A stretch of 64,000 nucleotides of DNA, taken from positions 35,582 to 99,581 of the forward strand of contig JAVCCG010000017.1 of the NCBI GenBank assembly GCA_030765605.1. The letters run 5' to 3'. Below, in pieces: positions 8,776 through 63,675 of this stretch (position 1 is its first letter; the number at the start of each line of letters is the position of its first letter). A program made the translations under genes and the position numbers. Origin of the DNA: Candidatus Alcyoniella australis (GTDB taxonomy: Bacteria > Lernaellota > Lernaellaia > JAVCCG01 > Alcyoniellaceae). The notes below the pieces were generated by a model. It worked only from the letters and a program-made list of their open reading frames with translations. It made no database searches and was not told the origin of the DNA.

Positions 8776-8794
8776 CGCACTAACATCCACGACC

Positions 8795-35374: not shown

Positions 35375-36496
35375 CTACACCACCGCCCGGACCTGTTCGA
35401 TGACGTACTCGACCTGGGGCTGGGTCAGGTCGGGATAGAGCGGCAAGGCGATGGAGCGCGCGCCGATCGACTCGGCGACCAGGAAGTCACTGGGCTGATA
35501 CCCCAGCTCTTGGCGCAGGTAGGTGTGCAGATGCAGCGGTCGGAAGAACACGCCCGTGCCCACGCCGCGTTCGCCCAGTTGCTGGATGATCTCGTGACGG
35601 CGCGAGGCTTCGACCCAGATCGTGAACAGGTTGCGCGCGCTTTTCGAGCCGGGCCGAACTCGCGGAAAGTAGACGTTCTCGATCCGGTCGAACGCCTTTT
35701 CGTAGCGCTTGCAGATTTCGTCGCGCCGCGACCATAACTCCTCAATGCGCCGCAGTTGCGGCAACAGCAGCGCCGCGCGCAGGTCGTCCATCTCGCTGTC
35801 GAATCCCAAGGCGTCGATGTCGCAGGGCATGTGCAGACAGTCGCATCGATCGGCCTGCGTTTCGCTGACGCTGAGATTGCGCAGCCGCCTGAGGCGCTGG
35901 GCCAGGTCCGAATCATTTAGCACGATCGCGGCGCCTTGGCCCGCGCTGATGTTGGCAGTGGAGTGGAACCCCAGGCAGGCCGCGTCGGAAAGCTGGCCGG
36001 GACGGACCCCCTCGCGGCGGCCCTCCAGGCAATGCGAGGCGTCTTCGATAAGCAGTAGGTGCGAACGGTCGGCGATCTCGCGCAGCATGGCCATGTCGGC
36101 CATCTGACCATAGAGGTGCATCGGCACGATCGCCTTGGTCTGCGGCGTGATCGAGGCTTCGATCCGTTCGGCGTTGATGTTGCCGGTATCGGGCTCAACA
36201 TCCACGAACGCGGGTTTGGCGCCGGCGTGCATGATCGCGCTCACGGTTTCCAGCGGGCTCAGCGGCGAGAGGATCACCTCGTGGTCGCGGCCCACGTCCA
36301 GTGCGTGTAGCGCGAGCGTTATCGCATTCGTATTGTTGTTGACGGCCACACAGTGGCGCACGCCGAGCACCTGAGCCAGTCCGCTTTCCAGCCGCGTCAC
36401 GCGATCGCTGCTGCACAGCAGTGGCCGCTGCAGCGCATCCATCGCTTGCTCGATCTCGTCGTGTCCCAAACAGTGACGGTAAAGCTCGATCTTCAT
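35375..36496 (-). CDS. DegT/DnrJ/EryC1/StrS-fold PLP-enzyme homologue, apparently lacking the Schiff-base lysine
   Basis: 373 aa with family-typical architecture. The motif region reads LGFHSTANISAGQGAA, where canonical members have FSFHxxKNxxxGEGG, so the Lys position appears to be Ala. Confidence 0.5.
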   Translation of the reverse strand: MKIELYRHCLGHDEIEQAMDALQRPLLCSSDRVTRLESGLAQVLGVRHCVAVNNNTNAITLALHALDVGRDHEVILSPLSPLETVSAIMHAGAKPAFVDVEPDTGNINAERIEASITPQTKAIVPMHLYGQMADMAMLREIADRSHLLLIEDASHCLEGRREGVRPGQLSDAACLGFHSTANISAGQGAAIVLNDSDLAQRLRRLRNLSVSETQADRCDCLHMPCDIDALGFDSEMDDLRAALLLPQLRRIEELWSRRDEICKRYEKAFDRIENVYFPRVRPGSKSARNLFTIWVEASRRHEIIQQLGERGVGTGVFFRPLHLHTYLRQELGYQPSDFLVAESIGARSIALPLYPDLTQPQVEYVIEQVRAVV

Positions 36497-36499
36497 GGC

Positions 36500-38248
36500 T
36501 TAAACGGAGCCTCCACAGCAGCTTTGGTTTCGGTCATGCTCGTCCGGGGGTTGCCCGTCCGCGTCATCATCATCGTCGCCCGCAGTGTCGTCGTCATCAT
36601 TATCGTAATCGTCGTCGCCCGCCGGCTCCCAGGGGAATTCGCCGATCACCGGCAGGCGTAGGGTGGTCTGATCGCCGAAGACGATCGTGTTGGTCTGATC
36701 CAGCGGCAATCCGATTTCGCCCGGCGTGAGGCCTGGATTGATAGCGAAGAACGGCGATTCGGAGCTGGAGATCAGCACGCCGATGCGATGGCCGGTGTTG
36801 AACGCGTGGCTGGTCGACCACAGGTCGATTGTAAGCTGCGCCGCCTCGCCGGGAACCAGCGCGAGCTGTTGTTCGAATCCCTGGCGGAAGCGCGCGCGCA
36901 GGATGCCGTTGACGATCAGGATCATTCGGCCGTCGGGATAGAGGTCGACCAGGTAGGCGGTGACGTCGGTGTCCGCACGGTCGCTGATCAGCTCCACGTT
37001 GAGCAGTACTTTGCCCGTGACCTCCACCGGCTGGGGCAGCGGCTCGCTCTGGAAGTACAGCACGTCGTCGCGCTCAAGGTAGCTTGTCAGGTCGCAGGGC
37101 CCGGACAGTGCGCTCATTGAGCGGCCGCAGCGGGTGGGCAGCGGATCGTCCGGGTCGAACAGGTAGCTCAGGGTGCCCTCCGCAGGCGGATCGATCGACA
37201 GCGCGGCGTCAACGGTCGGGTAGAGCTTGACCTCGTGCTGTCCCGGCGGCGGCCAGCTCTCGCCGTACTGCCAGCTGTTGCCCGGCGCGTCGGGGTCGCT
37301 CACATCGCCCATGGTGTAGTAGCTCACCGCCGGCCAGTTGAACCCGTCCAACGTGCCCTCCAACGCCCGGTCGAGGAAGTCGTCCAGCGGATCCTTGCGC
37401 GGCGGTTTGTAGCAGCGCCGAGCGTTTTCCGGGAAGGTCAGCTCGCCTATGGTGTTCAGGCCGAAGGTGGCGTGGGTCCAGGGGCCGATCACCAGGTACT
37501 GTTGCTCGGCGCCCGCATGGCTGAAGATCTCGAATCCGCGGATCGCGCCCTCGGAGAAGAAGTCGTACCAGCCGCCAAAGTGGAACGCCGGGCTTTCCAG
37601 GTACGGTTCGCGCGTAGCCAGGTCGACCTGCTCCCAGTACTCGTCGTATGCCGGATGGGCCAGCATCTCGGGCAGGCGGAACAGGCTGCCCTGGCCCTGA
37701 AGCCAGCCGGTGATGTCGCCCTCGCGCAGCACGCCGCCCTGGAGAAAGCCGATGTGATAAAGCGTGGGCGAGGCCGCGGCCATCACCTGACCAGCCAGCT
37801 GATCCGAGGCCGCGCCGGAGAGCATGTATTGCAGAATCGCCAGGCCCGAGTAGCCCTGGCCGACGATCGTGCCGTTGTACCAGGGCATCAGCTCGACGGC
37901 GTGCACCGTGTCCAGGCCGTCGCGCAGCTCGCCCCAGCCGTCGCAGCGAAACACGCAGTCCAAGCCCTGGGATGCGCCGCGGCCGCGGGCGTCCTGAATC
38001 ACCACCGCGCGGCCCTCGTCGGCCAGCGCTCCGTAAGTGACCATCTGCAGCTTGTCGTAGGGTGTGCGCAACAACAGCGTGGGCAGGCGGTCGCCCAGTT
38101 GGTAGCCGCCGGGCAGGTAGATATCCGTGGCTAGATTGACGCTGTCGCGCATCGGCCACGAGAGGGGAAAGTAGAGGAACGCTTGGGCCGCCGCGGGCAG
38201 CAGCAGCGCCAGAGCCACGATCACCGCACACGCCGTTGACCTGCGCAT
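36500..38248 (-). CDS. CocE/NonD family (S15-like) alpha/beta hydrolase, secreted, with C-terminal poly-Asp tail
   Basis: Signal peptide, LLRTPYDK N-terminal motif and an Asp-rich C-terminus (DDDYDNDDDDTAGDDDDDADG). Confidence 0.5.
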   Translation of the reverse strand: MRRSTACAVIVALALLLPAAAQAFLYFPLSWPMRDSVNLATDIYLPGGYQLGDRLPTLLLRTPYDKLQMVTYGALADEGRAVVIQDARGRGASQGLDCVFRCDGWGELRDGLDTVHAVELMPWYNGTIVGQGYSGLAILQYMLSGAASDQLAGQVMAAASPTLYHIGFLQGGVLREGDITGWLQGQGSLFRLPEMLAHPAYDEYWEQVDLATREPYLESPAFHFGGWYDFFSEGAIRGFEIFSHAGAEQQYLVIGPWTHATFGLNTIGELTFPENARRCYKPPRKDPLDDFLDRALEGTLDGFNWPAVSYYTMGDVSDPDAPGNSWQYGESWPPPGQHEVKLYPTVDAALSIDPPAEGTLSYLFDPDDPLPTRCGRSMSALSGPCDLTSYLERDDVLYFQSEPLPQPVEVTGKVLLNVELISDRADTDVTAYLVDLYPDGRMILIVNGILRARFRQGFEQQLALVPGEAAQLTIDLWSTSHAFNTGHRIGVLISSSESPFFAINPGLTPGEIGLPLDQTNTIVFGDQTTLRLPVIGEFPWEPAGDDDYDNDDDDTAGDDDDDADGQPPDEHDRNQSCCGGSV

Positions 38249-40065: not shown

Positions 40066-40161
40066 GACGTTATCTCCTTCATAATTTTCCGGTGTGGACA
40101 GGATCGACGGCCAATCTATAGGATGGTGCGTTTCATGTCCACGCGCTTTGGAGGTGCTTCG

Positions 40162-42114
40162 ATGTCGATATCCAGACTGACAACTCTGGTGCTGGTCGCG
40201 TTCCTTATAGCGTGTCCAACGCTGTGTGCGGCCCAGGACGACGGGTTCGCAAACTACCTGCAGATCAGCTATGCCCGGGGCGGATCGCTCTCGCCCGAGG
40301 GCTCGCGGCTCGTCTATCTGGACAACGGCGGCGGCACGTATCAGGTCTACCTGCGCGACCTGACGGCTGACCAGAGCGCGCCCCCGCGGCAGCTCACCGA
40401 CTTTGCCGAGCCGGTTGAGTTCGCCGTGTATTTGCCGACCCGGGAGCGGGTGCTGATCGGATCATCCGTAGGCGGCAACGAGCGCACCCAGTTGCTGCTG
40501 CTCGACCCGGCCACGGGCGAATACGAGGCGTTGACCAGCGCGCCGGAGGTGATCCACCGTTTCGGCTGCTTCAGCCGCGACGGCCGCTACATCGCTTACG
40601 CTGCCAATGCGCGTGATCAGGCCCACTTCGACATCTATGTGATGGACATGAACACGCGCGAGGCGCGCCGAGTTTTGACCCGCGACGGATACAACGACGC
40701 CGAGAGCTTCTCTCCCGACGGCAAACAGCTGGTCGTCAGCTCCTGGGAGAGCAACTACGACAACAATCTGTACCTACTGGATCTAGGCGACGGCGAGATG
40801 CGGCTGCTCACCAAGCACGTGGGCTGGGCGACCTACGAGTACCCGCGTTTCGACCGCAAGGGTAAGCATCTGTGGTTGACCTCCAACTACAGCCAAAACT
40901 TCAACAACCCGGCGCGAATCAAACTTCGCAACGGCAAACTGCGCTTCGAGCGGTTGATCAACCGCGAGACCGAGGCCCTGGTGCTCTCCGAGGACCCGCA
41001 ACGCCTGGCCTACGTGATCAACGACGACGGCTACTCGATGCTGATGCTTTGGGACCCCAAGGGCTGGCGCGAGCTGGAGCTGCCGCAGATCCCGCGCGGC
41101 GTGATCCGCAACCTCTCGATCAGCCCCGACGGCACCAAGCTGGCATTCTCGCTCTCGTCGCCGACCCTGCCCAGCAGCGTGTTCGTGGTCGATATCGAGG
41201 CGCGCAACCTGCGGATGGTCAGCGTGCCGAATTTCGCGGGCATCGACCCGACGGGATTCGTCGAACCTGAATTGATTAAATACCAATCGGCCGACGGCAA
41301 GAGCGTCCCGGCGTTTCTCTACGTACCTCCCGGCGTCAAGGCCGACGGCTCCAACCCGGCGTTGATCTATGCCCACGGCGGTCCCGAGGGCCAGGAGCGG
41401 CCGGACTTCGGCATCACCTTTCAGTATTTCCTCTCGCGCGGCTACCTGATCTTCGCCCCCAATCCGCGGGGCTCCGCGGGCTACGGCAAGCTCTACATTC
41501 ATGCCGACGACAAGGATAAGCGGCCGGCCGCGGTGGCCGACTACGCCTGGGGCGCCAAGTGGCTGGTCGAGAACAACTGGGCTGATCAAAGCAAGATCGG
41601 GATCTACGGCGGCTCCTACGGCGGCTACGTGGTGATGGCCATGCTCGCCCAGTTCCCGCAGACCTGCGCCGCCGGGGTGAGCTTTGTGGGCATCTCCAAC
41701 CTGGTGAGCTTTTTGCAAAACACCGGCGCCTGGCGACGGGCGATCCGCGAGGCGGAGTACGGCTCACTTGAGTTCGACCTGGAGCTGCTGCAGCGCATCA
41801 GTCCGATCAACAAAGTCGAGCTGATCAGCTCGCCGCTGATGGTGATCCAGGGCGCCAACGATCCGCGCGTGCCGCAGCAGGAGGCCGACCAGATCGTGGC
41901 CGCGTTGCGTGCGCGCAACGTGCCGGTGGAATATCTGCTCTACGCCGACGAGGGGCACGGCTTGGCCAAACGCAAGAACCGGCTCGAGGCCTATCCCAAG
42001 ATGGGCGCGTTTTTCGACCTCTATCTGCGCGGGATCCAGCCTGAGCCCGAAAAACAGACTGAGCAGAACGCAACGGACGAAGACGGGGAGCAGCCGCCTG
42101 CGACCGAGCAATAA
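40162..42114 (+). CDS. S9 family peptidase (prolyl oligopeptidase/dipeptidyl aminopeptidase-like, with N-terminal beta-propeller)
   Basis: Signal peptide and GGSYGGY nucleophile motif. C-terminal DEGHG region. GGAGG SD upstream of ATG 40162. Confidence 0.7.
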   Translation: MSISRLTTLVLVAFLIACPTLCAAQDDGFANYLQISYARGGSLSPEGSRLVYLDNGGGTYQVYLRDLTADQSAPPRQLTDFAEPVEFAVYLPTRERVLIGSSVGGNERTQLLLLDPATGEYEALTSAPEVIHRFGCFSRDGRYIAYAANARDQAHFDIYVMDMNTREARRVLTRDGYNDAESFSPDGKQLVVSSWESNYDNNLYLLDLGDGEMRLLTKHVGWATYEYPRFDRKGKHLWLTSNYSQNFNNPARIKLRNGKLRFERLINRETEALVLSEDPQRLAYVINDDGYSMLMLWDPKGWRELELPQIPRGVIRNLSISPDGTKLAFSLSSPTLPSSVFVVDIEARNLRMVSVPNFAGIDPTGFVEPELIKYQSADGKSVPAFLYVPPGVKADGSNPALIYAHGGPEGQERPDFGITFQYFLSRGYLIFAPNPRGSAGYGKLYIHADDKDKRPAAVADYAWGAKWLVENNWADQSKIGIYGGSYGGYVVMAMLAQFPQTCAAGVSFVGISNLVSFLQNTGAWRRAIREAEYGSLEFDLELLQRISPINKVELISSPLMVIQGANDPRVPQQEADQIVAALRARNVPVEYLLYADEGHGLAKRKNRLEAYPKMGAFFDLYLRGIQPEPEKQTEQNATDEDGEQPPATEQ

Positions 42115-48157: not shown

Positions 48158-50500
48158 TTACTGCAAAATCTTGAAATTTTGCTCCAGGGAGCGGCTGTTG
48201 CCCGCGCGATCGGTAACTTGAAGTTTGATTGTGTGCTCGCCGGGCTCCAGATTTTGGTCCGGGATGTATTTGATCCAGCCTCGCGGACCGTTGCTCTCGC
48301 CCACCACGCGTTGGCCATCGAGGGTCAGGACCGTGTTGCCCGCCGGAATGCCCGAGCCCGCGTCGCTGACCACGAAGCTCAGAGCCGGTCGCGCATTGCG
48401 CAATTTGGCGTTGGCGCGTGGCCCGGTCCACTTGATGTACGGCCGTTGCACGTCGCGCATCAGCGCGAAAGTGCCCAGTTGCGGCGCCCGTCCGCTGATG
48501 GTGCGCGAGGCTGGGTCGTGGTTAAAACCCATCTGCCACCAGCGGCCGGAGTCGTAGTAGTAGACTCCCACGCCGTTTGGGGTCTGGCCCTCGGGCAGCT
48601 TGATGCTCACCCCGATTTTGCCGCCCAGGGGCACGCCCTTGCGCTCGATGCAATAGGCCGCTCCCACCTGTTGCAGGCCCTGTTTGGGCTCGGGGACAGT
48701 CGTCTGTTCCAGCGTGGTGTAGAACGGACGCTCCAGCGTGCCCCGGCCGAGGCGCACGGCGAACCGGCCGTCGTTCGATTTAAGCCTGGCACCCCCGCGC
48801 GCGAGCTGCAGCGGCGCTGCAATGTTTGCGCGGACCTCGCGGCCTTGGCGGTCGCGTCCGCTGGCGCTGATCGACAGCGGGGTCGAGACGATGTTGTTGT
48901 TGTCCAGGATCGCCATGTAACGGCCGTTGCCCTGCCAGACGCCGGGCAGCAGCACCTCGTCCTCGCCCCCTCCGCTGACCTTTACCGTGGGCTCGCGCAG
49001 CAGCGGCTCTGCGGTGTTGATCACGATCTCGGTGTACAGCTCGCGCAGCCGGTAGCTGATCGAGATCTGCGGCAGTGCGGCAGCCTGTTCGATGGTGGGT
49101 CGAGCGTAGAACAGCCGCCATGGGGAATGCAGCCCGTGCCCGTCCTGGGTCCGCGCTTTGATCAGCAGGCCCTCAAGCGCTCGGCCCATGGGCGGCTCGA
49201 GCTCCCAACGTCCGGCGTCAAGCGCGTGCGTTGTGGCCGCATGCCACGAGCGTCCGTGGTCGGCGGACCAGGCGCTCTCCAAGAGCAGGTTGGGCTCGCC
49301 GTCAGGGTCGCTGCCTCCCAGCAGCACGCGCGTTTGTTCAGTCTCGATGCGGAACAGCTCGGGCGCGCGGTTGGCGATCAAGGTCAGCTCGACCACCGTG
49401 CTGTTGTCCGAGACGTCCGTGGCGATCAACCGCAACGTGTGCTCGCCCTGGGGCAGATCGCGGATTACGCCATCGCCATCCAGGTCAAAGGCCGTTTGCT
49501 CGACCCACTTGCGGAACAGCCGGTGATAGCCGTGGCCGTGCCGGAAGTACAGCTCGAGGTCGTAGGCGTAGTTGATCACCTGCTTGTGCTCGTAGCAGGA
49601 GCGCTGGAACTGCGAGAGGAAAATCGTCTTGCCGTCGAGCTCGGCGCGCAGTTGGTAGGGCGCCAGGATGCGGTCCGAGCCGTCGATGCGGTCGATAACC
49701 CGCAGCCCGAATCCAACCTCGCCGCTGATCGAGATCGGCCTGCCCGAGCTGTAGTGACCGTCGCGTTTGACCAGCGGCAGCACCGGCTTGGAGCGTCCGC
49801 CGTTGACCGTGGCGTCGTGGCTCAGTGGATCGATGAAGATTTCCAGCGGCTGGGGCGGGATGCTGTCGTCGCGGAAGAAGCCGTGGGTCAACGGGTTGAG
49901 CGGGCAGTTGTCCGGGCCGCGCAGCTCGAAGTGCAAATGCGGCGAGCTGGTGCCGGTGTTGCCCGCGTAGCCGATCACCTGGCCCGCCGTGACCTTGATC
50001 TCGCCGGGCTTTAGGAACAGGTCGGCCTCGTACGAGCCGATCTGCCGGTGATAGGCGCGCATTCGAGTCCAGATTTCGTCGATCATTCCGTCGAGGTGGG
50101 CGTAGACCACGGTGTTGCCGTCCTCGAGCCGGATGTACAGCGCCTTGCCGTAACCCACGGCGCTGGTGCGCGCGCGGCAGACCCAGCCGTCGGCCACAGC
50201 CACCACCGGCGTGCCGATCACGCCGTAGGTCGACAGGTCGAGCCCCGCGTGAGGGTGGCCGATGCGGTATTCGCCGAAGTTGCCCGAGATGCGAATCGGC
50301 GTCAGCAGCGGCCAAAGATAACCGCGGTCCGAGACAAAGCTTTGGGGCTGCATCTGCGGGACCTGTTGGGCCTGGGCCAGGGTGGCGGGGACCGGATCGG
50401 CGGCCACGGCCGGAACAGCGGTCAGCAGTACGGCCAGCGTCAGCGCGGCGATGGTTCTGAGCATGTCCAGGATCCGAAATTGCGGCGCGACCGGCCTCAA
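48158..50500 (-). CDS. M23 family metallopeptidase (LytM domain) with C-terminal repeat domains
   Basis: HPHAGLD and GNTGTSSPHLHFE motifs. The start is uncertain: TTG at 50500 or ATG at 50465. Confidence 0.75.
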   Translation of the reverse strand: MRPVAPQFRILDMLRTIAALTLAVLLTAVPAVAADPVPATLAQAQQVPQMQPQSFVSDRGYLWPLLTPIRISGNFGEYRIGHPHAGLDLSTYGVIGTPVVAVADGWVCRARTSAVGYGKALYIRLEDGNTVVYAHLDGMIDEIWTRMRAYHRQIGSYEADLFLKPGEIKVTAGQVIGYAGNTGTSSPHLHFELRGPDNCPLNPLTHGFFRDDSIPPQPLEIFIDPLSHDATVNGGRSKPVLPLVKRDGHYSSGRPISISGEVGFGLRVIDRIDGSDRILAPYQLRAELDGKTIFLSQFQRSCYEHKQVINYAYDLELYFRHGHGYHRLFRKWVEQTAFDLDGDGVIRDLPQGEHTLRLIATDVSDNSTVVELTLIANRAPELFRIETEQTRVLLGGSDPDGEPNLLLESAWSADHGRSWHAATTHALDAGRWELEPPMGRALEGLLIKARTQDGHGLHSPWRLFYARPTIEQAAALPQISISYRLRELYTEIVINTAEPLLREPTVKVSGGGEDEVLLPGVWQGNGRYMAILDNNNIVSTPLSISASGRDRQGREVRANIAAPLQLARGGARLKSNDGRFAVRLGRGTLERPFYTTLEQTTVPEPKQGLQQVGAAYCIERKGVPLGGKIGVSIKLPEGQTPNGVGVYYYDSGRWWQMGFNHDPASRTISGRAPQLGTFALMRDVQRPYIKWTGPRANAKLRNARPALSFVVSDAGSGIPAGNTVLTLDGQRVVGESNGPRGWIKYIPDQNLEPGEHTIKLQVTDRAGNSRSLEQNFKILQ

Positions 50501-50505
50501 GTCGA

Positions 50506-52053
50506 CTAGTTACACGGTTGGTTGCAGTAGGGCAGCTGGTTCAGCGGTCTGAAGGAGGAGACCGGATCGGACTCGTCGTAGACCTGGGCGTCGTAGGACA
50601 GCTCGAGCGAGGCGTAGAGTTTGCGCGTTACGCGTTTGACGATCAGCACCTGGCCGATTTGCAGCTTGTCCGAGGGCTTGATCTTGTTCCAGAGGCACAG
50701 GTCGCTCATCCGGCAGTTGAAACGGCGCGAGATCGTCCACAGCGAGTCGCCGGACTCGACATTATGCACGGCCTGTTCCATCACCAGCTCGCTGTTGTCG
50801 GCGACCATCTGCTCGATGCTCGGTTCGCGTTCGGGCAGCGGCGGCACTTCGCTGGTGTAGACCACCAGCGATTGTCCGGGGTAGAGCCTCTTGGAGCGAC
50901 TCAGCCCGTTCCAGGCACGGATGTTGGACGAGGTGACCGCGGGGTCGAGAAAACGCGAGGAGATCGTGCTCAGCGAGTCGCCTTCGGCCACCACGTAAAT
51001 CAGCGAGGGCCCGTCGCGCTTAACCCTGCGCGACACGCTCGAGCTGGCCACTGCCCTGCGCGAGGGCGAGTAGCTCGCGGTCTGGCGCGGGCGCGCGCTT
51101 CCGGGCTCGTAGTCGACCTGGGAGCCGCTGCCGATCATCCGCCCTTGGCGTGCCAGCTGGAAATCGGTCTGGGTCGGCGTAAATCCGTCGGCCGCAGCCA
51201 CGGCATTCGGGCAATAGAAGCGGACGTGCAGGTGGTTGTGGTGTCCGCGCGAGTGACGGATGATCCCCTGGCGTACGCGGCGTCCGCGGGGATATTGAAA
51301 GACCGTCTCGAGGAAGGCGGCCGATTTTTTCAGGTTGTCGCGGCAGTAGGCGTAGAAGATCGATTGCAGCGAGTAGTCCAGGAAGATGTACTGGACTTTG
51401 CCGTTCTCGATCATCGCCTCGATCAACGTCCAGGTTTTGGGTACGTCGAGGTTCCCCTCGTTCATTGTGACGAAATGGCCGCGCGCGCTTCCGTCGCTGA
51501 AGTAGAGGCCGATGTCGATGTCGCGGCCGTTCTCGTGGGAGACGTGGGGCCGCAACGATCCGCCGCCCGGAGCGCTCAAATCGCCGATGTAAATGTCGTG
51601 GGTCCCGGGGTAGGTGACCTGCACGGTCTCAATGGCGTAGAGCACTGCCGAGATCAGTTCCGGCGTGGAGAAGTCGTGGTGCGAGCGGCGCACAAAGTAG
51701 CCCGGGCCGTCGGGGAACTGCACGCCGTTGATCAGCAGGCCGTTTGACGGAGCGCCCCAGGACATGCATACGCCCTCGGGCATCGGCACGCGCTGGCTGA
51801 CGTCGATCGCTTTAGGTGGCTGTTCCACGGTCGGGGGCAGCTCTTTATTTATCGATAATTCGTCGAGGGAGTCCTGGTCGGACGCGGCTTGGGCGGAGTT
51901 CTGATCCTGGTCCTCGGCCTGTTCACCCTGCTCGACAGTCTGCTCGGAGGTCGATTCGTCGGATTCGCCTTGATCGGACGCGACCTCCTCGGCCCACACC
52001 GCGGGCGCGAGCAGTAGCAAGCTTAGTAGGGCGATCAGTAGCAGTCGTCGCAA
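50506..52053 (-). CDS. MepA-like (M74) murein endopeptidase with two C-terminal LysM domains
   Basis: LRPHVSHENGRDIDIGLYF and HHNHLHVRF resemble the MepA metal-binding motifs. Two LysM-like segments (VAEGDSLSTIS, VESGDSLWTIS). The probable start is TTG 52053 with SD GGCGGGAG; the ORF extends to 52137. Confidence 0.5.
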   Translation of the reverse strand: MRRLLLIALLSLLLLAPAVWAEEVASDQGESDESTSEQTVEQGEQAEDQDQNSAQAASDQDSLDELSINKELPPTVEQPPKAIDVSQRVPMPEGVCMSWGAPSNGLLINGVQFPDGPGYFVRRSHHDFSTPELISAVLYAIETVQVTYPGTHDIYIGDLSAPGGGSLRPHVSHENGRDIDIGLYFSDGSARGHFVTMNEGNLDVPKTWTLIEAMIENGKVQYIFLDYSLQSIFYAYCRDNLKKSAAFLETVFQYPRGRRVRQGIIRHSRGHHNHLHVRFYCPNAVAAADGFTPTQTDFQLARQGRMIGSGSQVDYEPGSARPRQTASYSPSRRAVASSSVSRRVKRDGPSLIYVVAEGDSLSTISSRFLDPAVTSSNIRAWNGLSRSKRLYPGQSLVVYTSEVPPLPEREPSIEQMVADNSELVMEQAVHNVESGDSLWTISRRFNCRMSDLCLWNKIKPSDKLQIGQVLIVKRVTRKLYASLELSYDAQVYDESDPVSSFRPLNQLPYCNQPCN

Positions 52054-52147
52054 ACGTATACTCCCGCCAACCTGCCGTAGGGCAGCATCGGCAACATATA
52101 ATCGTGTGATTATCTCAGAAACGAGATGCAAAACCAAGCCCTAACGC

Positions 52148-53971
52148 TTACTTATCCAGTAGTTCTTTCACCCGTTGGCGATCGCGGCCGTAGATGTCGG
52201 TGAGGAAGATCGCCCGGCCGTCATCGTGCAGCGCCACGGTGACGTACTCGATATGGATCGGGATTTTGGTGCGCAGCTCCAGCCGCCGGTTGTTGCCCGA
52301 GCGCAACATCCGTTCGGTGTTGGCCGCCTCGGGGTGGCCGTCCTGCTCGATCAGCCATTGGGCCATCTCCAGGGCATTTTCCAGGCGCATACAGCCGTGG
52401 GAGTAGGCGCGATAGCTGCGGTTGAACAGGTATTTACTCGGAGTATCGTGCAGGTAAACGTCGTGGTGGTTGGGAAAGAGGATCTTGACCTTGCCCAAGG
52501 CATTACCCGCGCCGGGCTTCTGAGTGATGTACAGCCGTCCGCTGCTTGATTCGCGCAGCTTGTAACCGCGGACTTTGTAGTAATCGTCGATGTCCTCGGC
52601 CAGTTCGGCCTTGGCCACGATCTCCTCGACGATCCGTTCGGGCACGTTCCAGAAGGGGTTGTACTCGACGAACTCGATCTCGTCGACGAACTCCGGGGTG
52701 TTGTTGTCCTTCTTGCGGTTGCCGACCACGATGCGATGCTTGCGGAGCAGCTCGCCCTCGCGCACCACGTGGACCTCGTACTGCGGGATGTTGACCCGGA
52801 AGTAGAAGGGCTTCCAGCGGCATGGCGTTTCGCGCAGCTTTTGCGTTGCCAGGGCGATCTGCGCCGCGCGCATATCGATCGGCACGTTGAGCGCCTTGAA
52901 GGTCGATCGCGCCGCCACACCGTCGGGCGTGAGCTGATGGTGCTCCTGGTAGCTCTTGACCGCATCTTGCGTGGCCAGGTCGAAAAAGCCGCTGACCGGA
53001 CCTTGGTAGAATTCTTCCAGTCCCAGCCGCCGTTGCAGTTGTTCGACCAGCGGGCCGCGACTGTTGCGCCGAAGCTTGGTGAAACGCGAGCGCGGCTCGA
53101 TCGGCTCGATCACGTCCCGAGCGTCGAGTTTAAGATAGAACTCCATCGCGCGTTGCAATCCGGCATAGTCGAGCATTCGCGGATCGAGTGCAGCCAGCGC
53201 AGCGTCGAGATCATTGCGCGCCACAGCCAAGACCGAGCCCAGGCGCGAGCGCGGCAGGCCCATCTGCAGCGCCATGCGCTCCAGGTCGCGGGCCAGCTCC
53301 ACGTCCAGCCGGGCCGCGCGGCCCTCCAGCGCCCGAAGTTCGCGGTCCAGCCCTGAGACCTGTTCCACTGGCTTGGAATAGGCGCTGCCCGCATCAGCTT
53401 GCTGCAGTCGGTCCAGCAGCCTTGCGGCCAGCTGCTCGTGCGACAGGTCGCGAAGGTTGCCCAGCTCCAGGCACAGTCGCAGCTCCTGCCACAGCGTGAT
53501 CTCGAGGCTGAAGCGATCGATCAGATCGCGGGCGTCGCTTTGGATCGCGGCGATCCGCTCGCGGTTGTAATCCACTCCATAGGACGTGGGGTCGATGCCA
53601 TCGAAGCGCAGCCGCTCGATTCTCTTGAGCAGCGTATTAGCCGCGGGCAGCGGTTGATATCCGTCAAAGAACACCGGCCGTAGCCTGCCGTTGAAATACA
53701 GCATCCGCAGCGACAGCGCGATGCGGTCCTGGGGCAGTGCGGCGGAGATCTCGTCGGCCTGAAGCTCGAGCAGTTCGGGATCAACGGCCAGTTGCTCCGC
53801 CAGGGCCGGGCCGCAACGCGGCGCGAAGTCGCGCAGGGCGAGCTGATTGGGTTTGAGGTAGAGTAGGTATCCGGCGACCAGAGCGCAGATCGACAATGTC
53901 GCGGCCAGCAAAATATATGCCGGGCCGCGACCTCGTGTTTTTATGCTCTGCGCCTGTTCGTCCTCGGGCAT
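52148..53971 (-). CDS. L,D-transpeptidase (YcbB/LdtD-like) with peptidoglycan-binding domain
   Basis: YkuD catalytic motif HDTPSKYLFNRSYRAYSHGCMRL and a PG_binding_1-like segment. Confidence 0.75.
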   Translation of the reverse strand: MPEDEQAQSIKTRGRGPAYILLAATLSICALVAGYLLYLKPNQLALRDFAPRCGPALAEQLAVDPELLELQADEISAALPQDRIALSLRMLYFNGRLRPVFFDGYQPLPAANTLLKRIERLRFDGIDPTSYGVDYNRERIAAIQSDARDLIDRFSLEITLWQELRLCLELGNLRDLSHEQLAARLLDRLQQADAGSAYSKPVEQVSGLDRELRALEGRAARLDVELARDLERMALQMGLPRSRLGSVLAVARNDLDAALAALDPRMLDYAGLQRAMEFYLKLDARDVIEPIEPRSRFTKLRRNSRGPLVEQLQRRLGLEEFYQGPVSGFFDLATQDAVKSYQEHHQLTPDGVAARSTFKALNVPIDMRAAQIALATQKLRETPCRWKPFYFRVNIPQYEVHVVREGELLRKHRIVVGNRKKDNNTPEFVDEIEFVEYNPFWNVPERIVEEIVAKAELAEDIDDYYKVRGYKLRESSSGRLYITQKPGAGNALGKVKILFPNHHDVYLHDTPSKYLFNRSYRAYSHGCMRLENALEMAQWLIEQDGHPEAANTERMLRSGNNRRLELRTKIPIHIEYVTVALHDDGRAIFLTDIYGRDRQRVKELLDK

Positions 53972-58756: not shown

Positions 58757-58815
58757 TTAATCCCAGGCTAAGCTCACTGTCAACCTCGGATATTACCGTA
58801 TGGTATAAATCGACC

Positions 58816-60273
58816 GTGCCAAAGCAGCCTTTAACAGACCGCGGAGAGCGCCGCAGGGCCCAAAGCCGCGCCGAGCGCTTGGGATTGCTGCTGGCGGTTT
58901 TAGGCGGGGTCGCACTGCGGCTGCCGCTGATCGACGCTTGCGGAATCATGCCTGCCGACGGCCTGCGCCTGGCAGTCTGGTCGATCACCGTGCAGGACAA
59001 AGCGCTGCCGCTCTATCCGCTGCTGCTCCAGGCGATGCGGCCGCTGTGCGGCAACGCGCAGCTCGCCGGCGGGCTGGTCGCGGCATTGCTCGGGGCGTGG
59101 GCCGTGGTGCCGCTCTACCTTTTGTTGAGCGAGCGGGTAAGTCGCGTCGCGGGCTGGATCGGCGTGCTGATCGCCTCGAGCTCGTTGCACTGCATTGCGC
59201 TCAGCGCCGGGGTCGTGCCCAATCCGGCGTTGATCGTGCCGCTGCTTTACGCCTGGCTCTTTTGGGGCCGACTAGATCCGGACGACCGCGCGAACCTGAT
59301 TAAATTCAACCTGGCCTGCGGCCTGGCCGCTCTGGCGCGTCCCGAGGGTTGGGCGCTGATCGCACCCTGCGCCTGGGCCAACTATCGCTACATCCGGCAA
59401 CGGGGTTTCTCTCGTTGGCTGGGGCCGGGTCTGGCCGCGGCGCTGCCCTACCTGGCGCTGGTCGGCTGGATGGCGCTGCTGGGGCACAGCGGCTACGCCG
59501 GCGAGTTCTTTGGCTACTCACTATCACGGCTGAGCGTCGGGGGCGTGCTGCACGGCCTGACCGGCTATCTCGCGGCGCTGGTGGGACACGGGTTTGCCTG
59601 GTGGTGCCTCGTTGCGCTCTGCGGCTGCGTCGCGGCGCTGTGTGGAAAGGGGTTTGCGCGCAGCCTGGCGTTCGAGGCGCTGGCGATTGTGGCGGTGCTG
59701 CTCGCGGCGCTCTCGATCCAGTGGGCGCCGGACCTGCACCGGTTGCTCACGCCCGCGGTCTTTGCGGTCTACGTGAGCGCTGCGGCGGCCCTTGGCGCGC
59801 TGCTGCGCGGGCTGCGGGCACGCAGGACGTTGCAAAGCGCGGTCGCGGTGACGATCGGGTTACTGGTGTTGCTCAGCGCGGCCCTGAGCTACGGCATTCT
59901 CTCCGATGCGCGCCAGGATCTGCGCGGTGTGTTCGACGATCGACTGCGGTCCTGGCAGGTCGCGGCGGCCGCGACTCAGGGCCGATTGCACAGCGACCTG
60001 CCGCTGGAGGCCTCGTACTATTCGGGCCGCGAATTCGACCGTTACTCGATCGAGACTGCGCTGCCCGGCGATACGTTGGCGCTGCACAGCACCGAGGGCT
60101 GCCTGGAACAGCGGATCGATGAGTTGCGGGAGCGCTTCGAGCTGCGAGTGCTGCGCCGGTTGACCGCTCCCCGGGCTTTTAAGTACGGCCCGGCCAACGT
60201 AAGCTGTTTCAATGGAAGCGATCCGGGAGAGCTGCACGTCTCGATAGTGATCGCTCTGGACCAAGTGAGGTAA
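58816..60273 (+). CDS. GT-C superfamily membrane glycosyltransferase-like protein (ArnT/PMT, GT39/GT83-like)
   Basis: 485 aa, about 10 TM helices plus a roughly 130-aa C-terminal soluble domain. Topology resembles ArnT-like proteins. No decisive motif. Confidence 0.35.
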   Translation: MPKQPLTDRGERRRAQSRAERLGLLLAVLGGVALRLPLIDACGIMPADGLRLAVWSITVQDKALPLYPLLLQAMRPLCGNAQLAGGLVAALLGAWAVVPLYLLLSERVSRVAGWIGVLIASSSLHCIALSAGVVPNPALIVPLLYAWLFWGRLDPDDRANLIKFNLACGLAALARPEGWALIAPCAWANYRYIRQRGFSRWLGPGLAAALPYLALVGWMALLGHSGYAGEFFGYSLSRLSVGGVLHGLTGYLAALVGHGFAWWCLVALCGCVAALCGKGFARSLAFEALAIVAVLLAALSIQWAPDLHRLLTPAVFAVYVSAAAALGALLRGLRARRTLQSAVAVTIGLLVLLSAALSYGILSDARQDLRGVFDDRLRSWQVAAAATQGRLHSDLPLEASYYSGREFDRYSIETALPGDTLALHSTEGCLEQRIDELRERFELRVLRRLTAPRAFKYGPANVSCFNGSDPGELHVSIVIALDQVR

Positions 60274-60275
60274 AT

Positions 60276-62369
60276 ATGCGCAAAACGGCCTTGGCATTGG
60301 CCTTGGTCTGCCTGCCGCTGCTGCTCGCCTCATCCGCGCTGGCGGAAGAGCGCGGGCTGGAAAAGCTGGTCACGATCCTCCAAGCCCAGGACGCGCGGCA
60401 GGTGACCGAAGGATTGGCGCAGCTTACGCGTGATCCCGACCCGGCGATCGCTGCGCGCGCCCTGCGCGCCCTGGGACGCATCGGCGATCCGGTGGCTCTG
60501 CCGTTGCTGCTCGAGGCCCTGCACTCGGGAAACGTTCGCGACGAGGCGATTTTTGCCCTGGGCGAGTTGGAGGACCGCGAGACCCTGGCCTTAATCGGCG
60601 CCAAGCCTGATCCCATGGCGCTCGAAGCCCTGCGCGGCGTGCTTGTCGAACCGACGACGATCCTCTCCCAAGACGTGTTGTTGCGCCGCGCCCTGGCCGT
60701 GGAGGCGCTGGGCAAGCTTCGCGACCGCGAGTGGGTGGAGAAGATCGTTGAGGCGGGCACCATGGGTCTGGGCGGGATGCGCGGCTCGATGCCCGAGTTG
60801 CTGTGCCTCAACGCGATTACCGCGCTGGTGCGCATCGACGACGAGGCTGCGCTGCCGCTGCTGCTCAGCGCCCTTGAGGCCCCGAGCCCGGCGCTACGGC
60901 GCAGTGCGGCTCTCGGGCTGGGGAGGATGGGCCGCACTGAAACAGCGGACGAGCTTTCGGCGCTGTTCAATGATCCTGATCCGGAAGTGCGTTCGGCCGC
61001 GTTGTGGGCGCTGGTGCGGCTTGCGGCGTCGGATAAGGCGAACCTTGCGCTGCGGATGCTCTCCGACCCGGTGCTCGAGGTGCGGATCGAGGCGATCCGA
61101 CTGCTGGCGCTGGGTTCGGGCCCGGAGGTCAGCGGCGCGTTGTTCCATCATCTGCGGCGCAGCGGCGGCCGTCCGCCCGCGGCTTACAATAACGAGGATC
61201 TCGAGGTGCTGCGCGCCCTGGGCCGACTGGGCGGCAAGGACGAACGCAACCTGCTCTCGATGCTCGTGAGTCAGCCCGGGCCGGCCGGGTTGACTGCGCG
61301 CTGGGCCTATGCGACCTGCAAGACAGTGGAAGACCGCGACGTGCTGACCGTGGAGCGCAAGTACTATGCGAGTACGCCGCTGTCCTACGTTTCGTGGGCC
61401 GAGGCGCTGGCCCAACGCGGTGGAGAGGCGGGCCGCATCGGGCTGCGCGCGGTAATCGAAGACCCGGCGGCTCCGGCCGAAGCCAAGTGCATTGCGCTGG
61501 ACGCGCTGGCCGACAAGCTGCCCGAGCAGGTCGAGGCCTGGGCCACGGAGTTCCTCTCCCAGCCGGGCAGCCCGCCGCAGCTCAAGGCCGGTGCGGCCCA
61601 GGCCCTGAGCGCGATCCAGAGCCAGAGCGCGTTGGCCGAACTGCTCGCGGCCTGGCCCCGGGCGCATCACGAGGTTGATCCCGACGTGCGGCTCTCGCTG
61701 CTCGACGCGTTGGGCAAGCACGCGGCTCGCCTTGACCAGCGCTCCCAGCGCTGGTCAAGGGTGCGCGCGGCGATCTACTCGGGTACGCGCGATCAACAGC
61801 GGCTGGTCAGGGCGCAGGCGATCAGGTTAATGCGCGAGATCTACAACGAGGACCTGCTCTCGATGCTCGCCCAACAAATGCCCGCGTCCGACGACGGGCG
61901 CTGCGAGCGGGCCGCGCAGTTGATCGGCAAGCTGCGCATACTACGGATCGAGACGCCGCGCGGCCGGATCGACGTGCGGCTGGAGACCGACGATGCGCCG
62001 CTGACCGTGTTGCAGATCAGCGAGCTGGCGCGTTCCGGCGCGTACAACGGACTAATCTTCCACCGCGTTGTGCCCGATTTCGTTGTCCAGGGCGGCGACC
62101 CGCGCGGCACTGGTTGGGGATCGGCCGGCGAGCTGCTGCCGTGCGAAATCAGTCGGCTGCGGTTCGTCACCGGCGCGGTGGGCATGGCCACGGCGGGCAA
62201 GGACACCGGCTCGAGCCAGTTTTTCTTTACGCTCTCGCCCCAGCCGCACCTCGACGGCGGCTACACGGTGTTCGGCGAGGTGGTGCAGGGGATGGACGTG
62301 GTGCGCAGGCTGCTGCCCGGCGACAAGATCGTACGCGCCACGCTGCTCGACCTGCGGCCGCAGCAATAA
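60276..62369 (+). CDS. periplasmic HEAT-repeat protein fused to a cyclophilin-type peptidyl-prolyl isomerase domain
   Basis: Signal peptide. Repeated ALGRIGDPVALPLLL-type HEAT/PBS-lyase repeats. C-terminal FHRVVPDFVVQGGDP...GSQFFFTL cyclophilin signature. Confidence 0.65.
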   Translation: MRKTALALALVCLPLLLASSALAEERGLEKLVTILQAQDARQVTEGLAQLTRDPDPAIAARALRALGRIGDPVALPLLLEALHSGNVRDEAIFALGELEDRETLALIGAKPDPMALEALRGVLVEPTTILSQDVLLRRALAVEALGKLRDREWVEKIVEAGTMGLGGMRGSMPELLCLNAITALVRIDDEAALPLLLSALEAPSPALRRSAALGLGRMGRTETADELSALFNDPDPEVRSAALWALVRLAASDKANLALRMLSDPVLEVRIEAIRLLALGSGPEVSGALFHHLRRSGGRPPAAYNNEDLEVLRALGRLGGKDERNLLSMLVSQPGPAGLTARWAYATCKTVEDRDVLTVERKYYASTPLSYVSWAEALAQRGGEAGRIGLRAVIEDPAAPAEAKCIALDALADKLPEQVEAWATEFLSQPGSPPQLKAGAAQALSAIQSQSALAELLAAWPRAHHEVDPDVRLSLLDALGKHAARLDQRSQRWSRVRAAIYSGTRDQQRLVRAQAIRLMREIYNEDLLSMLAQQMPASDDGRCERAAQLIGKLRILRIETPRGRIDVRLETDDAPLTVLQISELARSGAYNGLIFHRVVPDFVVQGGDPRGTGWGSAGELLPCEISRLRFVTGAVGMATAGKDTGSSQFFFTLSPQPHLDGGYTVFGEVVQGMDVVRRLLPGDKIVRATLLDLRPQQ

Positions 62370-62388: not shown

Positions 62389-63675
62389 CTATTTCTTATT
62401 CAGTGCGCGCTTGCTGACCCTGATTGCGCAGAACTCCCCGCACATAGTGCACACGTCGTCCTCGGTCGGCGGCGTGTTGGCGCGCAGTTCCTCGGCGCGT
62501 TTTGGGTCGATGGCGGACTCGATCTGTCCCGGCCAGTCCTGGGCCACGCGACGCTCGCTCATCTTGCGGTCGAGCGCCCAGGAGTCGGCGCGGCCGCGAG
62601 CTAGGTCAGCGGCATGCGCCGCGATCTTGGAGGCGATCACTCCCTGCCGCACCTGCTCGACGTCGGGCAGCCCGAGGTGCTCGCTGGGCGTGACGTAGCA
62701 CAGGAAGTCCGCGCCGTGCCAGGCGGCCAACGCCCCACCGATGGCGCAGGCGATGTGGTCGTAGCCCGGAGCGATGTCGGTCACCAGCGGACCGAGCACG
62801 TAGAACGGCGCGCCGTCGCAGATCCGCTTCTGCAGCTCGACGTTGCTCTGCACCTGATCCAGCGGCACGTGCCCCGGCCCCTCGACCATCACCTGCACGC
62901 CCGCGGCCCGCGCGCGTTTGGTCAGTTCGCCGAGTACGAACAGCTCGGCGAGCTGGGCCGGATCCGTGGCGTCGACGATCGATCCGGGACGGAATCCGTC
63001 GCCCAAGCTGAGCACAACCTCGTGCTCGGCCGCGATCTGCAGCAATTCGTCATAGCGCTCGTAGAGCGGGTTTTCCGCCTTGTTGTGCATCATCCACTCG
63101 ACGAGGAACGAGCCGCCGCGGCTGACAATGCCCATCAGTCGCGGGTTGTCCAACAGTACCTTGAGCGAGTTGCGGTTGATGCCGCAGTGCACGGTGATGA
63201 AGTCGACTCCACCCTCGCATTGGCGGCGGATCACCTCGAACAGCAGGTCCGGGTCGAGGTCGGCCAGGCCCACGCCGCAGGCGATCGATTCGATGACCGC
63301 CTGGTAGATCGGCACGGTGCCCAGCGGGACCGGGCATTGCGCGAGGATCTCGCGGCGCACCGCGTCGATATCGCCGCCGGTGGAGAGGTCCATCACCGTG
63401 TCGGCCCCGGCGTCGAGCGCCGCCCGCAGCTTGTCCAGCTCGAATTGCAGGTCCGCGCGGTCCTTGCTGGTGCCGATGTTGGCGTTGACCTTGATCCGCG
63501 CGCCGCCGCCCACAGCCAGCGGCTCGATCTGCGGCCGGTGCAGGTTGCGCGTGATCACCGCCTTGCCCGCGGCGACCTGCTCGGCCAGGCTTTCGGGCTC
63601 GAGCCCCTCGCTGTGCGCGGCCTGAACCACGGATTGGGGAAGTGTGCCGGACTTGAGTTGTTCGAGTAGAGTCAT
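62389..63675 (-). CDS. thiC: phosphomethylpyrimidine synthase
   Basis: 428 aa. VMDLSTGGDI and the C-terminal radical-SAM-like Cys cluster region typical of ThiC. Confidence 0.8.
   Translation of the reverse strand: MTLLEQLKSGTLPQSVVQAAHSEGLEPESLAEQVAAGKAVITRNLHRPQIEPLAVGGGARIKVNANIGTSKDRADLQFELDKLRAALDAGADTVMDLSTGGDIDAVRREILAQCPVPLGTVPIYQAVIESIACGVGLADLDPDLLFEVIRRQCEGGVDFITVHCGINRNSLKVLLDNPRLMGIVSRGGSFLVEWMMHNKAENPLYERYDELLQIAAEHEVVLSLGDGFRPGSIVDATDPAQLAELFVLGELTKRARAAGVQVMVEGPGHVPLDQVQSNVELQKRICDGAPFYVLGPLVTDIAPGYDHIACAIGGALAAWHGADFLCYVTPSEHLGLPDVEQVRQGVIASKIAAHAADLARGRADSWALDRKMSERRVAQDWPGQIESAIDPKRAEELRANTPPTEDDVCTMCGEFCAIRVSKRALNKK

What the first reader, a model, noticed from the sequence alone, without database searches (positions are those of the whole stretch)
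58816..62369. GT-C glycosyltransferase-like membrane protein coupled (2-nt gap) to a periplasmic HEAT-repeat/cyclophilin fusion
A polytopic ArnT/PMT-like protein is followed immediately by a secreted 697-aa protein. That protein is made of many HEAT/PBS-lyase-type repeats and a C-terminal cyclophilin PPIase domain. The pairing suggests a periplasmic glycosylation and folding module: protein O-glycosylation by a PMT-like enzyme assisted by a scaffold/PPIase, or lipid A/glycan modification. HEAT-cyclophilin fusions are unusual architectures.
Basis: partly seen in the sequence, partly recalled or inferred. Interest (0 to 1): 0.55.

Follow-up and report, generated by a model that had tools for sequence, protein, structure and literature searches.

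The report
Membrane glycosyltransferase beside exported HEAT–cyclophilin
Two tightly packed genes of an uncultured Antarctic-lake bacterium encode a membrane sugar-transferase of the GT-C fold and an exported repeat-protein/prolyl-isomerase fusion; both belong to known kinds, and they sit together only in this lineage, so a dedicated glycosylation-folding machine is possible but not shown.

Summary
ORFs 58816-60273 (485 aa) and 60276-62369 (697 aa) lie on the + strand, 2 nt apart, with a GAGG ribosome-binding site inside the end of the first gene. The window comes from the MAG Candidatus Alcyoniella australis (phylum Lernaellota).

Protein 2 has a Sec signal peptide, many HEAT/PBS-type repeats and a cyclophilin domain that keeps the catalytic Arg, Phe and Gln.

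The HEAT-cyclophilin fusion is not rare. Full-length members occur in 69 of the 80 best genome loci, spread over about ten phyla. No paper describing the family was found.

The gene pairing is kept only in one related species (52-57% identity), which also shares the downstream thiC. It is absent from all 69 genome loci, from the nearest 30%-identity relatives, and from four relatives of the GT-C gene.

Verdict: two ordinary envelope genes that are co-expressed. A functional module remains a minority reading.

The parts
58757..58815 (+). Intergenic region between the divergent rnc gene and the GT-C gene. It presumably holds the promoter. A TATAAA lies at 58804-58809, 6 nt before the GTG start.
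   Evidence: Sequence read. The consensus scan found no full sigma-70 match, so the promoter is inferred only.
58816..60273 (+). GT-C-fold membrane glycosyltransferase, 485 aa. It belongs to an unnamed subfamily related to PMT_2 and GT22. The C-terminal roughly 100 aa form a small alpha/beta domain.
58957..58959 (+). Codon GAC for D48, the candidate catalytic or donor-binding Asp in the first periplasmic loop (family motif A-E-x-T-D-G).
   Evidence: At least 90% conserved among 20 family members that are 16-53% identical to the window protein. Its position after TM1 corresponds to the EL1 acidic motif of ArnT D55/E56, Pmt1 D77/E78 and TMTC1 D52/D53, as described in PMC7801869. The codon was read.
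60267..60278 (+). Gene junction: GAGG (60267-60270), stop TAA (60271-60273), 2-nt gap, ATG (60276-60278).
   Evidence: The related species has the same layout, GAGAGG-TGA-ac-ATG. No promoter-like or + strand terminator-like site was found between the genes.
60276..62369 (+). Exported HEAT-repeat/cyclophilin fusion protein, 697 aa.
   Evidence: The family alignment of 19 full-length members is.
60276..60344 (+). Sec-type signal peptide (residues 1-23, with an ALA|EE cleavage-type site).
   Evidence: The only hydrophobic segment of the protein is at residues 1-25. N-terminal signal or lipoprotein-like leaders are present across the family. The cleavage site is inferred and was not run through a predictor.
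60363..61865 (+). Alpha-solenoid region of HEAT/PBS-lyase-type repeats (about residues 30-530, roughly a dozen or more repeats).
   Evidence: Pfam HEAT_2 in five stretches, plus HEAT, HEAT_PBS and HEAT_EZ. Repeat motifs are visible in the sequence.
61941..62345 (+). Cyclophilin-type PPIase domain (about residues 556-690).
   Evidence: Pro_isomerase 1.5e-37. Best solved relative is 2mvz_A at 8.7e-39. The alignment to human CypA keeps R55, F60, Q63, F113 and L122, with N102T, W121H and H126Y.

Best explanation
This is a two-gene, probably co-transcribed and translationally coupled unit encoding two cell-envelope proteins that are each ordinary members of known superfamilies.

Gene 1 makes an inner-membrane GT-C-fold glycosyltransferase. 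Its N-terminus is predicted to be cytoplasmic, and the nearly invariant Asp48 sits in the first periplasmic loop. By analogy with every characterised GT-C enzyme, it takes a sugar from a polyprenyl-phosphate-linked donor and transfers it on the periplasmic face to an acceptor that cannot be named from sequence (protein, lipid or glycan).

Gene 2 makes a Sec-exported protein in which a long HEAT/PBS-type alpha-solenoid carries a C-terminal cyclophilin that looks catalytically competent. It most likely acts as an ATP-independent periplasmic chaperone and prolyl isomerase. The solenoid would hold client polypeptides while the cyclophilin isomerises their prolyl bonds, in the manner of SurA, FkpA or PpiD (chaperone module plus PPIase) or Cyp40 (cyclophilin plus TPR solenoid).

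The adjacency of the two genes is a feature of the Alcyoniella lineage. It gives co-expression of two periplasm-facing functions, not evidence of an obligate two-part machine.

Shown here: the ORFs, the domains, the fold, the conserved residues, the distribution of the fusion family, and the lack of conserved linkage. Inferred: donor type, topology, chaperone role and co-transcription.
For: ORFs and junction.

Fusion protein: Pfam and PDB hits, active-site residues, signal peptide.

Family breadth: 596 or more pattern matches were confirmed as cyclophilin relatives. 69 of the 80 best loci encode the full-length fusion, in Acidobacteriota, Myxococcota, Gemmatimonadota, Ignavibacteriales, Calditrichota, Zixibacteria, Eisenbacteria and others. 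At least 72 of 73 keep the catalytic Arg/Gln motif.

Linkage not conserved. The one species that keeps the pair also keeps the downstream thiC. The conservation is therefore what ordinary synteny at that divergence would give.
Against: The 2-nt spacing with an internal SD is exactly kept in the one available relative at only 52-57% protein identity, which is some evidence of selection for coupled expression. Both products act on the periplasmic side. GT-C enzymes of the PMT clan are often fused to alpha-solenoid acceptor-binding domains (TMTC1-4 in PMC7801869; a PMT_2+TPR protein, P0225), so a solenoid partner encoded next door has a precedent. The sampling of Lernaellota is very thin, with one relative, so lineage-wide conservation could not be measured. 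No activity, topology or transcript data exist.
Confidence: 0.6

Rival explanations
1. A dedicated periplasmic glycosylation-folding module. The HEAT solenoid binds acceptor proteins, the cyclophilin sets the prolyl conformation near the acceptor site, and the GT-C enzyme then glycosylates them. In effect the HEAT-cyclophilin would be the detached acceptor-binding subunit of the transferase, as the TPR domain is in TMTC enzymes.
For: Translational-coupling layout kept in the related species. Both proteins face the periplasm. Solenoid fusions occur in the PMT clan (P0225; PMC7801869). A PDB entry lists a PPIase (FKBP11) in a translocon assembly that also contains the GT-C enzyme STT3A (9n9j, description line); this is a lead only.
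Against: No adjacency in 69 genomes with the fusion, nor in the nearest 30%-identity relatives. No HEAT-cyclophilin lies next to four relatives of the GT-C gene. The fusion has other tight neighbours elsewhere, such as an M1-type peptidase at about 2 nt in 18 loci. The only conserved case also shares flanking synteny. No donor-synthesis gene (a GT2 polyprenyl-phosphate glycosyltransferase) was found in the 64 kb window.
Confidence: 0.25
2. The GT-C-fold protein is not an active transferase but a structural or substrate-binding membrane subunit, as PIG-U/GAB1 are in GPI transamidase.
Confidence: 0.07
3. The HEAT/PBS region acts as a lyase or adaptor for a cofactor (like the CpcE/F or NblB bilin-lyase relatives), not as a chaperone platform.
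For: NCBIfam NblB 54 bits and CpcE/CpcF 22-27 bits. Pfam HEAT_PBS 1.4e-12.
Against: The scores lie far below the equivalog cut-offs (200-330 bits). They reflect only the shared repeat type. The protein is exported. The organism is described as an anaerobic heterotroph of an anoxic lake zone (PMC9324843).
Confidence: 0.03

Closest known systems
PMT_2 / GT-C 'PMT clan' enzymes: ArnT (GT83, 5ezm/5f15) and Pmt1/2/4 (GT39)
   Different: The window protein scores below the PMT_2 gathering threshold. It has one Asp rather than a DE/DD pair, and no MIR domain. Its close subfamily numbers only about 20 clusters at 50% identity. Donor and acceptor are unknown.
ALG12 / ALG9 (GT22, Dol-P-Man mannosyltransferases; 9s6t, 9s6u)
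   Different: Sequence identity is only 11-14%. The ALG enzymes are eukaryotic ER enzymes that act on a lipid-linked oligosaccharide. Nothing here indicates such an acceptor in this bacterium.
TMTC1-4 and bacterial PMT_2+TPR fusions
   Same: A GT-C/PMT-clan transferase is combined with an alpha-solenoid thought to bind the acceptor on the non-cytoplasmic side (PMC7801869; P0225).
   Different: In those proteins the solenoid is TPR and is fused in the same polypeptide. Here it is HEAT, lies on a separate exported protein, carries a PPIase, and its link to the transferase is unproven.
Periplasmic cyclophilin PpiA (E. coli) and small bacterial cyclophilins (2mvz)
   Same: The PPIase domain is homologous (NCBIfam PpiA 3.7e-18; 2mvz 8.7e-39). 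The catalytic Arg/Phe/Gln are kept, and bacterial-type substitutions occur at the CsA-binding Trp and at His126. It is exported by a signal peptide.
   Different: Those proteins have a single domain of about 150-190 aa. Here the cyclophilin is the last fifth of a 697-aa protein.
Two-module chaperone-PPIases: SurA, FkpA, PpiD (periplasm) and Cyp40/anaCyp40 (cyclophilin+TPR)
   Same: The logic of a client-binding helical module joined to a PPIase domain. The periplasmic location implies ATP-independent action (own knowledge; PMC13599543 and PMC8967839 were seen).
   Different: The PPIase class differs (parvulin or FKBP in SurA, FkpA and PpiD). Cyp40 has the opposite domain order and a TPR solenoid. 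No member of the HEAT-cyclophilin family was found described in the searchable literature.
Database family 'cyclophilin family peptidyl-prolyl cis-trans isomerase/HEAT repeat protein' (JGI label)
   Same: Same full-length architecture, size (about 640-760 aa) and N-terminal export signal. 26-56% identity over the alignment.
   Different: The members outside Lernaellota that were examined have no GT-C neighbour. A few have a degenerate PPIase site (P0023, P0031).

Membership tests
GT-C glycosyltransferase superfamily | Polytopic integral membrane protein with the GT-C fold | tested here: met
GT-C glycosyltransferase superfamily | Conserved acidic residue in the first extracytoplasmic loop after TM1 | tested here: met
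   D48 is at least 90% conserved in a 20-member alignment (motif AExTDG). The N-terminus is Arg-rich, which predicts that it is cytoplasmic and that the loop is periplasmic. Equivalence to ArnT D55 or Pmt1 D77 rests on position only and was not checked by structural superposition.
GT-C glycosyltransferase superfamily | Uses a polyprenyl-phosphate-linked sugar donor | not testable with these tools
   No biochemical data. No GT2 donor-synthase gene was seen in the window.
Pfam PMT_2 (PF13231) / CAZy GT39-GT83 type | Score at or above the Pfam gathering threshold (26.1 bits) | tested here: not met
   The window protein scores 22.0 bits, E 2.1e-4. Seven of ten remote relatives do pass, at 41.5-74.8 bits. 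Membership is therefore transitive, at superfamily or clan level only.
Pfam PMT_2 (PF13231) / CAZy GT39-GT83 type | Acidic pair (DE/DD) in EL1 and a conserved Arg before a late TM helix | tested here: inconclusive
   A single Asp (D48-G49) replaces the pair, and most relatives have E at position -3. R309 is invariant and immediately precedes a helix, which fits the 'Arg in front of TM10' of PMC7801869. The correspondence was not verified structurally.
Cyclophilin-type PPIase (PF00160) | Domain match above threshold | tested here: met
   129.7 bits against a cut-off of 21.7. 180 PDB cyclophilin sequences matched at E<=1e-3.
Cyclophilin-type PPIase (PF00160) | Catalytic residues (hCypA R55, F60, Q63, F113, L122, H126) | tested here: met
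   R, F, Q, F and L are kept. The H126Y, W121H and N102T changes are substitutions I recall from active bacterial cyclophilins (own knowledge). Alignment. Enzyme activity itself was not tested.
HEAT / PBS-lyase HEAT-like repeat proteins | Multiple tandem HEAT-type repeats above Pfam thresholds | tested here: met
   HEAT_2 114 bits (five stretches), HEAT 61.6, HEAT_PBS 47.2, HEAT_EZ 27.5, all at or above their cut-offs.
Phycobiliprotein lyases and NblB (CpcE/F, CpeY, NblB equivalogs) | Score at or above the NCBIfam equivalog cut-off | tested here: not met
   17.6-54 bits against cut-offs of 220-600.
Conserved GT-C + HEAT-cyclophilin operon (the proposed module) | Adjacency kept in related genomes beyond local synteny | tested here: not met
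   Kept only in one species (L001/L002/L093), which also keeps thiC. Absent from 69 genome loci, from L003, L095 and L096, and from L009, L010, L012 and L094.

The most novel reading that the evidence does not exclude
In Lernaellota the HEAT-cyclophilin protein may be a detachable acceptor-presenting subunit of a GT-C glycosyltransferase. The solenoid would capture exported, proline-containing client proteins, the cyclophilin would set the prolyl conformation, and the GT-C enzyme would then glycosylate them. That would be a bacterial periplasmic counterpart of the eukaryotic coupling between protein folding and GT-C glycosylation (TMTC/PMT/OST with lumenal partners). More broadly, the widespread and unstudied HEAT-cyclophilin family might be a general periplasmic adaptor that pairs with different envelope enzymes in different phyla: GT-C here, an M1-type peptidase in Pyrinomonadaceae.
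Probability: 0.15. Interest if true: 0.6.

Novelty: new member of a known kind. Interest (0 to 1): 0.3.

Why it matters
If the pairing were functional, it would give a simple two-gene bacterial system for studying how prolyl isomerisation and chaperoning are coupled to GT-C glycosylation outside the cytoplasm.

On present evidence, the useful results are these:
- The poorly scoring 'GT39 family' annotation is upgraded to a confident GT-C fold with a candidate catalytic Asp.
- A small unnamed GT-C subfamily is delimited.
- The exported HEAT-cyclophilin fusion is shown to be a broadly distributed periplasmic PPIase family, with no published description found. It would merit one biochemical study, whatever becomes of this locus.

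Tried and rejected
- AF2 of protein 1 with only two sequences gave an unusable model (pLDDT 40.5). It was replaced by the 20-sequence run.
- The PDB sequence search with the two-sequence profile found nothing. The 20-sequence profile found only a weak AglB TM-helix match (E 0.005).
- A pattern scan of genome contigs with the GT-C pair alignment found no relative, not even the source genome. The 20-sequence alignment was too divergent to yield patterns.
- The metagenome scan added only one new relative at 31% identity (L094), which has no HEAT-cyclophilin neighbour.
- The third word-indexed protein search, run with the family profile, returned generic PMT_2 proteins rather than the subfamily.
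- The afdb50 fold library was unavailable.
- Literature searches for a described HEAT-cyclophilin protein found none. A Myxococcus xanthus PPIase study (PMC13599543) names Cyp1-4 with N-terminal extensions and signal peptides. I could not establish which of them, if any, is the HEAT fusion, because no supplement is held.
- The bilin-lyase reading of the HEAT_PBS repeats was rejected on scores and biology.
- The faint ERAP1_C, adaptin and condensin hits were treated as generic solenoid similarity.
- My first regex count of degenerate PPIase sites was too strict. On inspection only L008 lacks the motif.
Full report
**Source and observation.** The window matches a 124.5-kb contig of the metagenome-assembled genome Candidatus Alcyoniella australis. 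Both proteins are 100% identical to NCBI entries named 'glycosyltransferase family 39 protein' and 'peptidylprolyl isomerase'. The organism belongs to the candidate phylum Lernaellota (FEN-1099). It was described from the anoxic zone of Ace Lake, Antarctica, as a probable anaerobic saccharolytic and proteolytic heterotroph (PMC9324843).

The junction reads GAGG-TAA-at-ATG, so a Shine-Dalgarno-like GAGG (60267-60270) lies inside the end of gene 1, 5 nt before the second start. No promoter-like or + strand terminator-like site was found between the genes. Both ORFs show the codon-position GC pattern of the other genes in the window.

The pair is bracketed by divergent rnc-era (58756-57115, minus strand) and convergent thiC (62389-63675, minus strand). 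It is therefore a self-contained two-gene unit.

**Gene 1 is a GT-C-fold transferase.** The protein is polytopic. It has an Arg-rich N-terminus, about eight hydrophobic stretches in the hydropathy scan (more helices in the model), and a soluble tail of about 100 residues.

Direct Pfam evidence is weak. PMT_2 scores 22 bits, below the 26.1-bit threshold, and NCBIfam gives nothing. The word-indexed search of 5.8 billion proteins found only one relative (P0002, 52% identity). A full HMMER scan of 1.84 billion cluster representatives with the two-sequence profile found 77 hits. About 20 of them are full-length proteins of 450-510 aa. Seven of the ten best pass the PMT_2 threshold, and several also pass Glyco_transf_22.

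- then Pmt2, ALG9, AftA, AftB and PglB

The family alignment shows a handful of residues conserved at 90% or more in sequences only 16-53% identical to the window protein: R35, D48, P65, Y67, P68, G169, R175, W218, Y251, R309 and D375. D48 lies in the loop right after TM1 (family motif AExTDG). This is the position at which ArnT (D55/E56), Pmt1 (D77/E78) and TMTC1 (D52/D53) carry their active-site acidic motif, according to PMC7801869. R309 immediately precedes a late helix, like the conserved Arg 'in front of TM10' noted in that paper.

The 'non-glycosyltransferase family' refutation does not apply.

What cannot be decided is the subclass. ALG12/ALG9 (GT22) score as well as or better than PMT and ArnT. 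The donor, the acceptor, and hence the choice between protein O-glycosylation and lipid A modification all remain open. No polyprenyl-phosphate sugar synthase gene lies in the 64 kb window.

**Gene 2 is an exported HEAT-cyclophilin fusion from a widespread family.** The protein begins with a typical Sec leader, MRKTALALALVCLPLLLASSALA|EE, which is its only hydrophobic segment. Residues about 30-530 are HEAT/PBS-type repeats (HEAT_2 3.5e-33 in five stretches, HEAT 2.8e-17, HEAT_PBS 1.4e-12). Residues 556-679 are a cyclophilin domain (1.5e-37). The best solved relative is the 148-aa cyclophilin 2mvz (8.7e-39).

Aligned to human CypA, the catalytic R55, F60, Q63, F113 and L122 are kept. W121 becomes H, H126 becomes Y and N102 becomes T. 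From my own knowledge, such substitutions are usual in active bacterial cyclophilins.

Matches to bilin-lyase and NblB models are far below their cut-offs. They reflect only the shared repeat type.

The architecture is not rare. The protein search returned some 35 clusters of 640-760 aa with both domain types, several already labelled 'cyclophilin family peptidyl-prolyl cis-trans isomerase/HEAT repeat protein'. Of the best 80 loci, 69 encode the full-length fusion. They come from Acidobacteriota (many Pyrinomonadaceae, Blastocatellia, Thermoanaerobaculia, Vicinamibacterales), Myxococcota (including cultured Corallococcus), Gemmatimonadales, Ignavibacteriales, Calditrichota, Zixibacteria, Eisenbacteria, Armatimonadota and others.

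Members share an export signal, a conserved 'ILxxED.R' start of the mature protein, and the cyclophilin motifs. At least 72 of 73 keep the catalytic Arg/Gln. I found no paper describing the family. A 2026 study of Myxococcus xanthus PPIases may include a member, but I could not verify this.

The pair is kept in one related organism, recovered from two independent metagenomes (L001/L093 and L002; proteins 52-57% identical to the window's). It has the same layout, GAGAGG-TGA-ac-ATG. That contig also keeps the convergent thiC. So the conservation is no more than local synteny would give.

Beyond that, the linkage disappears:
- The nearest other HEAT-cyclophilin relatives (about 30% identity, full length) have a dockerin/TSP3 protein, a divergent minus-strand gene, or a metallophosphatase upstream (L003, L095, L096).
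- More distant relatives have varied neighbours (L005, L007, L008).
- Among the 69 genome loci, a profile of the GT-C subfamily and a broader PMT_2 profile found no adjacent hit. Only two PMT_2-like ORFs turned up, about 4 kb away on the other strand.
- A hydropathy screen found no polytopic membrane protein within 860 nt of the fusion gene in any locus.
- Conversely, relatives of the GT-C gene are followed by a PrkA-like kinase gene, a sulfatase, a paralogous GT-C gene, or unannotated ORFs (L009, L010, L012, L094).

The fusion gene does have other recurrent tight neighbours. A signal-peptide-bearing M1-type peptidase lies about 2 nt downstream in 18 loci. A ddl-tgt-yajC-secDF block lies next to it in two loci.

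**Interpretation.** The best-supported reading (confidence about 0.6) is that these are two co-expressed envelope genes, each an ordinary member of a known superfamily. One is a GT-C transferase of unknown specificity. The other is a periplasmic chaperone-type PPIase, in which a solenoid client-binding platform carries a cyclophilin. This is analogous in logic to SurA, FkpA or PpiD, and to Cyp40.

The module hypothesis keeps about 0.25. The coupling layout is preserved. Both proteins act in the periplasm. PMT-clan GT-C enzymes are known to recruit alpha-solenoid acceptor-binding domains (TMTC1-4; a PMT_2+TPR protein). But these are analogies, and the comparative-genomic test did not support the hypothesis.

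A non-catalytic, PIG-U-like role for protein 1 is unlikely, given the conserved polar residues and the much higher similarity to true transferases.

**Novelty and score.** Neither protein is a new kind of thing. The GT-C subfamily is small and unnamed, and the HEAT-cyclophilin family has no published description that I could find, though source databases already label it widely. The specific pairing is new but lineage-restricted and unproven.

I rate the finding as a new member of known kinds, with interest 0.3. The most novel reading not excluded is that the HEAT-cyclophilin protein is a detachable acceptor-presenting subunit of a GT-C enzyme. I give that a probability of about 0.15, and it would merit interest of about 0.6 if true.

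Noticed in passing
window 6208-11043 (+): A second GT-C-type membrane protein (855 aa, Pfam YfhO 8.5e-11) is followed by an FAD-dependent oxidoreductase (8795-9928) and an unannotated 372-aa ORF (9925-11043). The close spacing suggests another envelope-glycosylation operon.
   Followed up: no
window 48158-53971 (-): A run of peptidoglycan-remodelling genes: an M23 peptidase (780 aa), an M74 MepA-like endopeptidase with two LysM domains, and a YkuD L,D-transpeptidase with a PG_binding_1 domain.
   Followed up: no
L031 4192-6093 and 17 other genome loci (Pyrinomonadaceae type): The HEAT-cyclophilin gene is followed at a median of 2 nt by a gene of about 630 aa for a signal-peptide-bearing protein with a Peptidase_M1 domain. 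This is a recurrent pairing, different from the one in the window.
   Followed up: partly
L005 7833-13833; L008 8160-14160: In two distant carriers the HEAT-cyclophilin gene lies beside the same block: ddl, tgt, yajC, secD, secF.
   Followed up: no
P0023 (L096 1335-3296) and P0031 (L008 6001-8160): Two family members have lost the cyclophilin FHR...QGG catalytic motif while keeping the full architecture. In some lineages binding rather than isomerisation may be what matters.
   Followed up: partly
L012 68-1970: Two paralogous genes of the GT-C subfamily lie in tandem.
   Followed up: no
window 58804-58816: A TATAAA lies 6 nt before the GTG start of the GT-C gene. This suggests a leaderless or very short-leader mRNA. 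The consensus promoter scan found no full match.
   Followed up: partly
window 36500-38248 (-) and 40123-42114 (+): Two proline-specific peptidases lie nearby: an S15 X-Pro dipeptidyl peptidase and an S9 prolyl-oligopeptidase-family protein with a beta-propeller. A DegT-type sugar aminotransferase lies at 35375-36496.
   Followed up: no
Genome-contig collection: The scan with the GT-C pair alignment did not recover the window's own genome. This MAG is apparently not among the species representatives held, or the region is not stored. That limited the within-phylum comparison.
   Followed up: no
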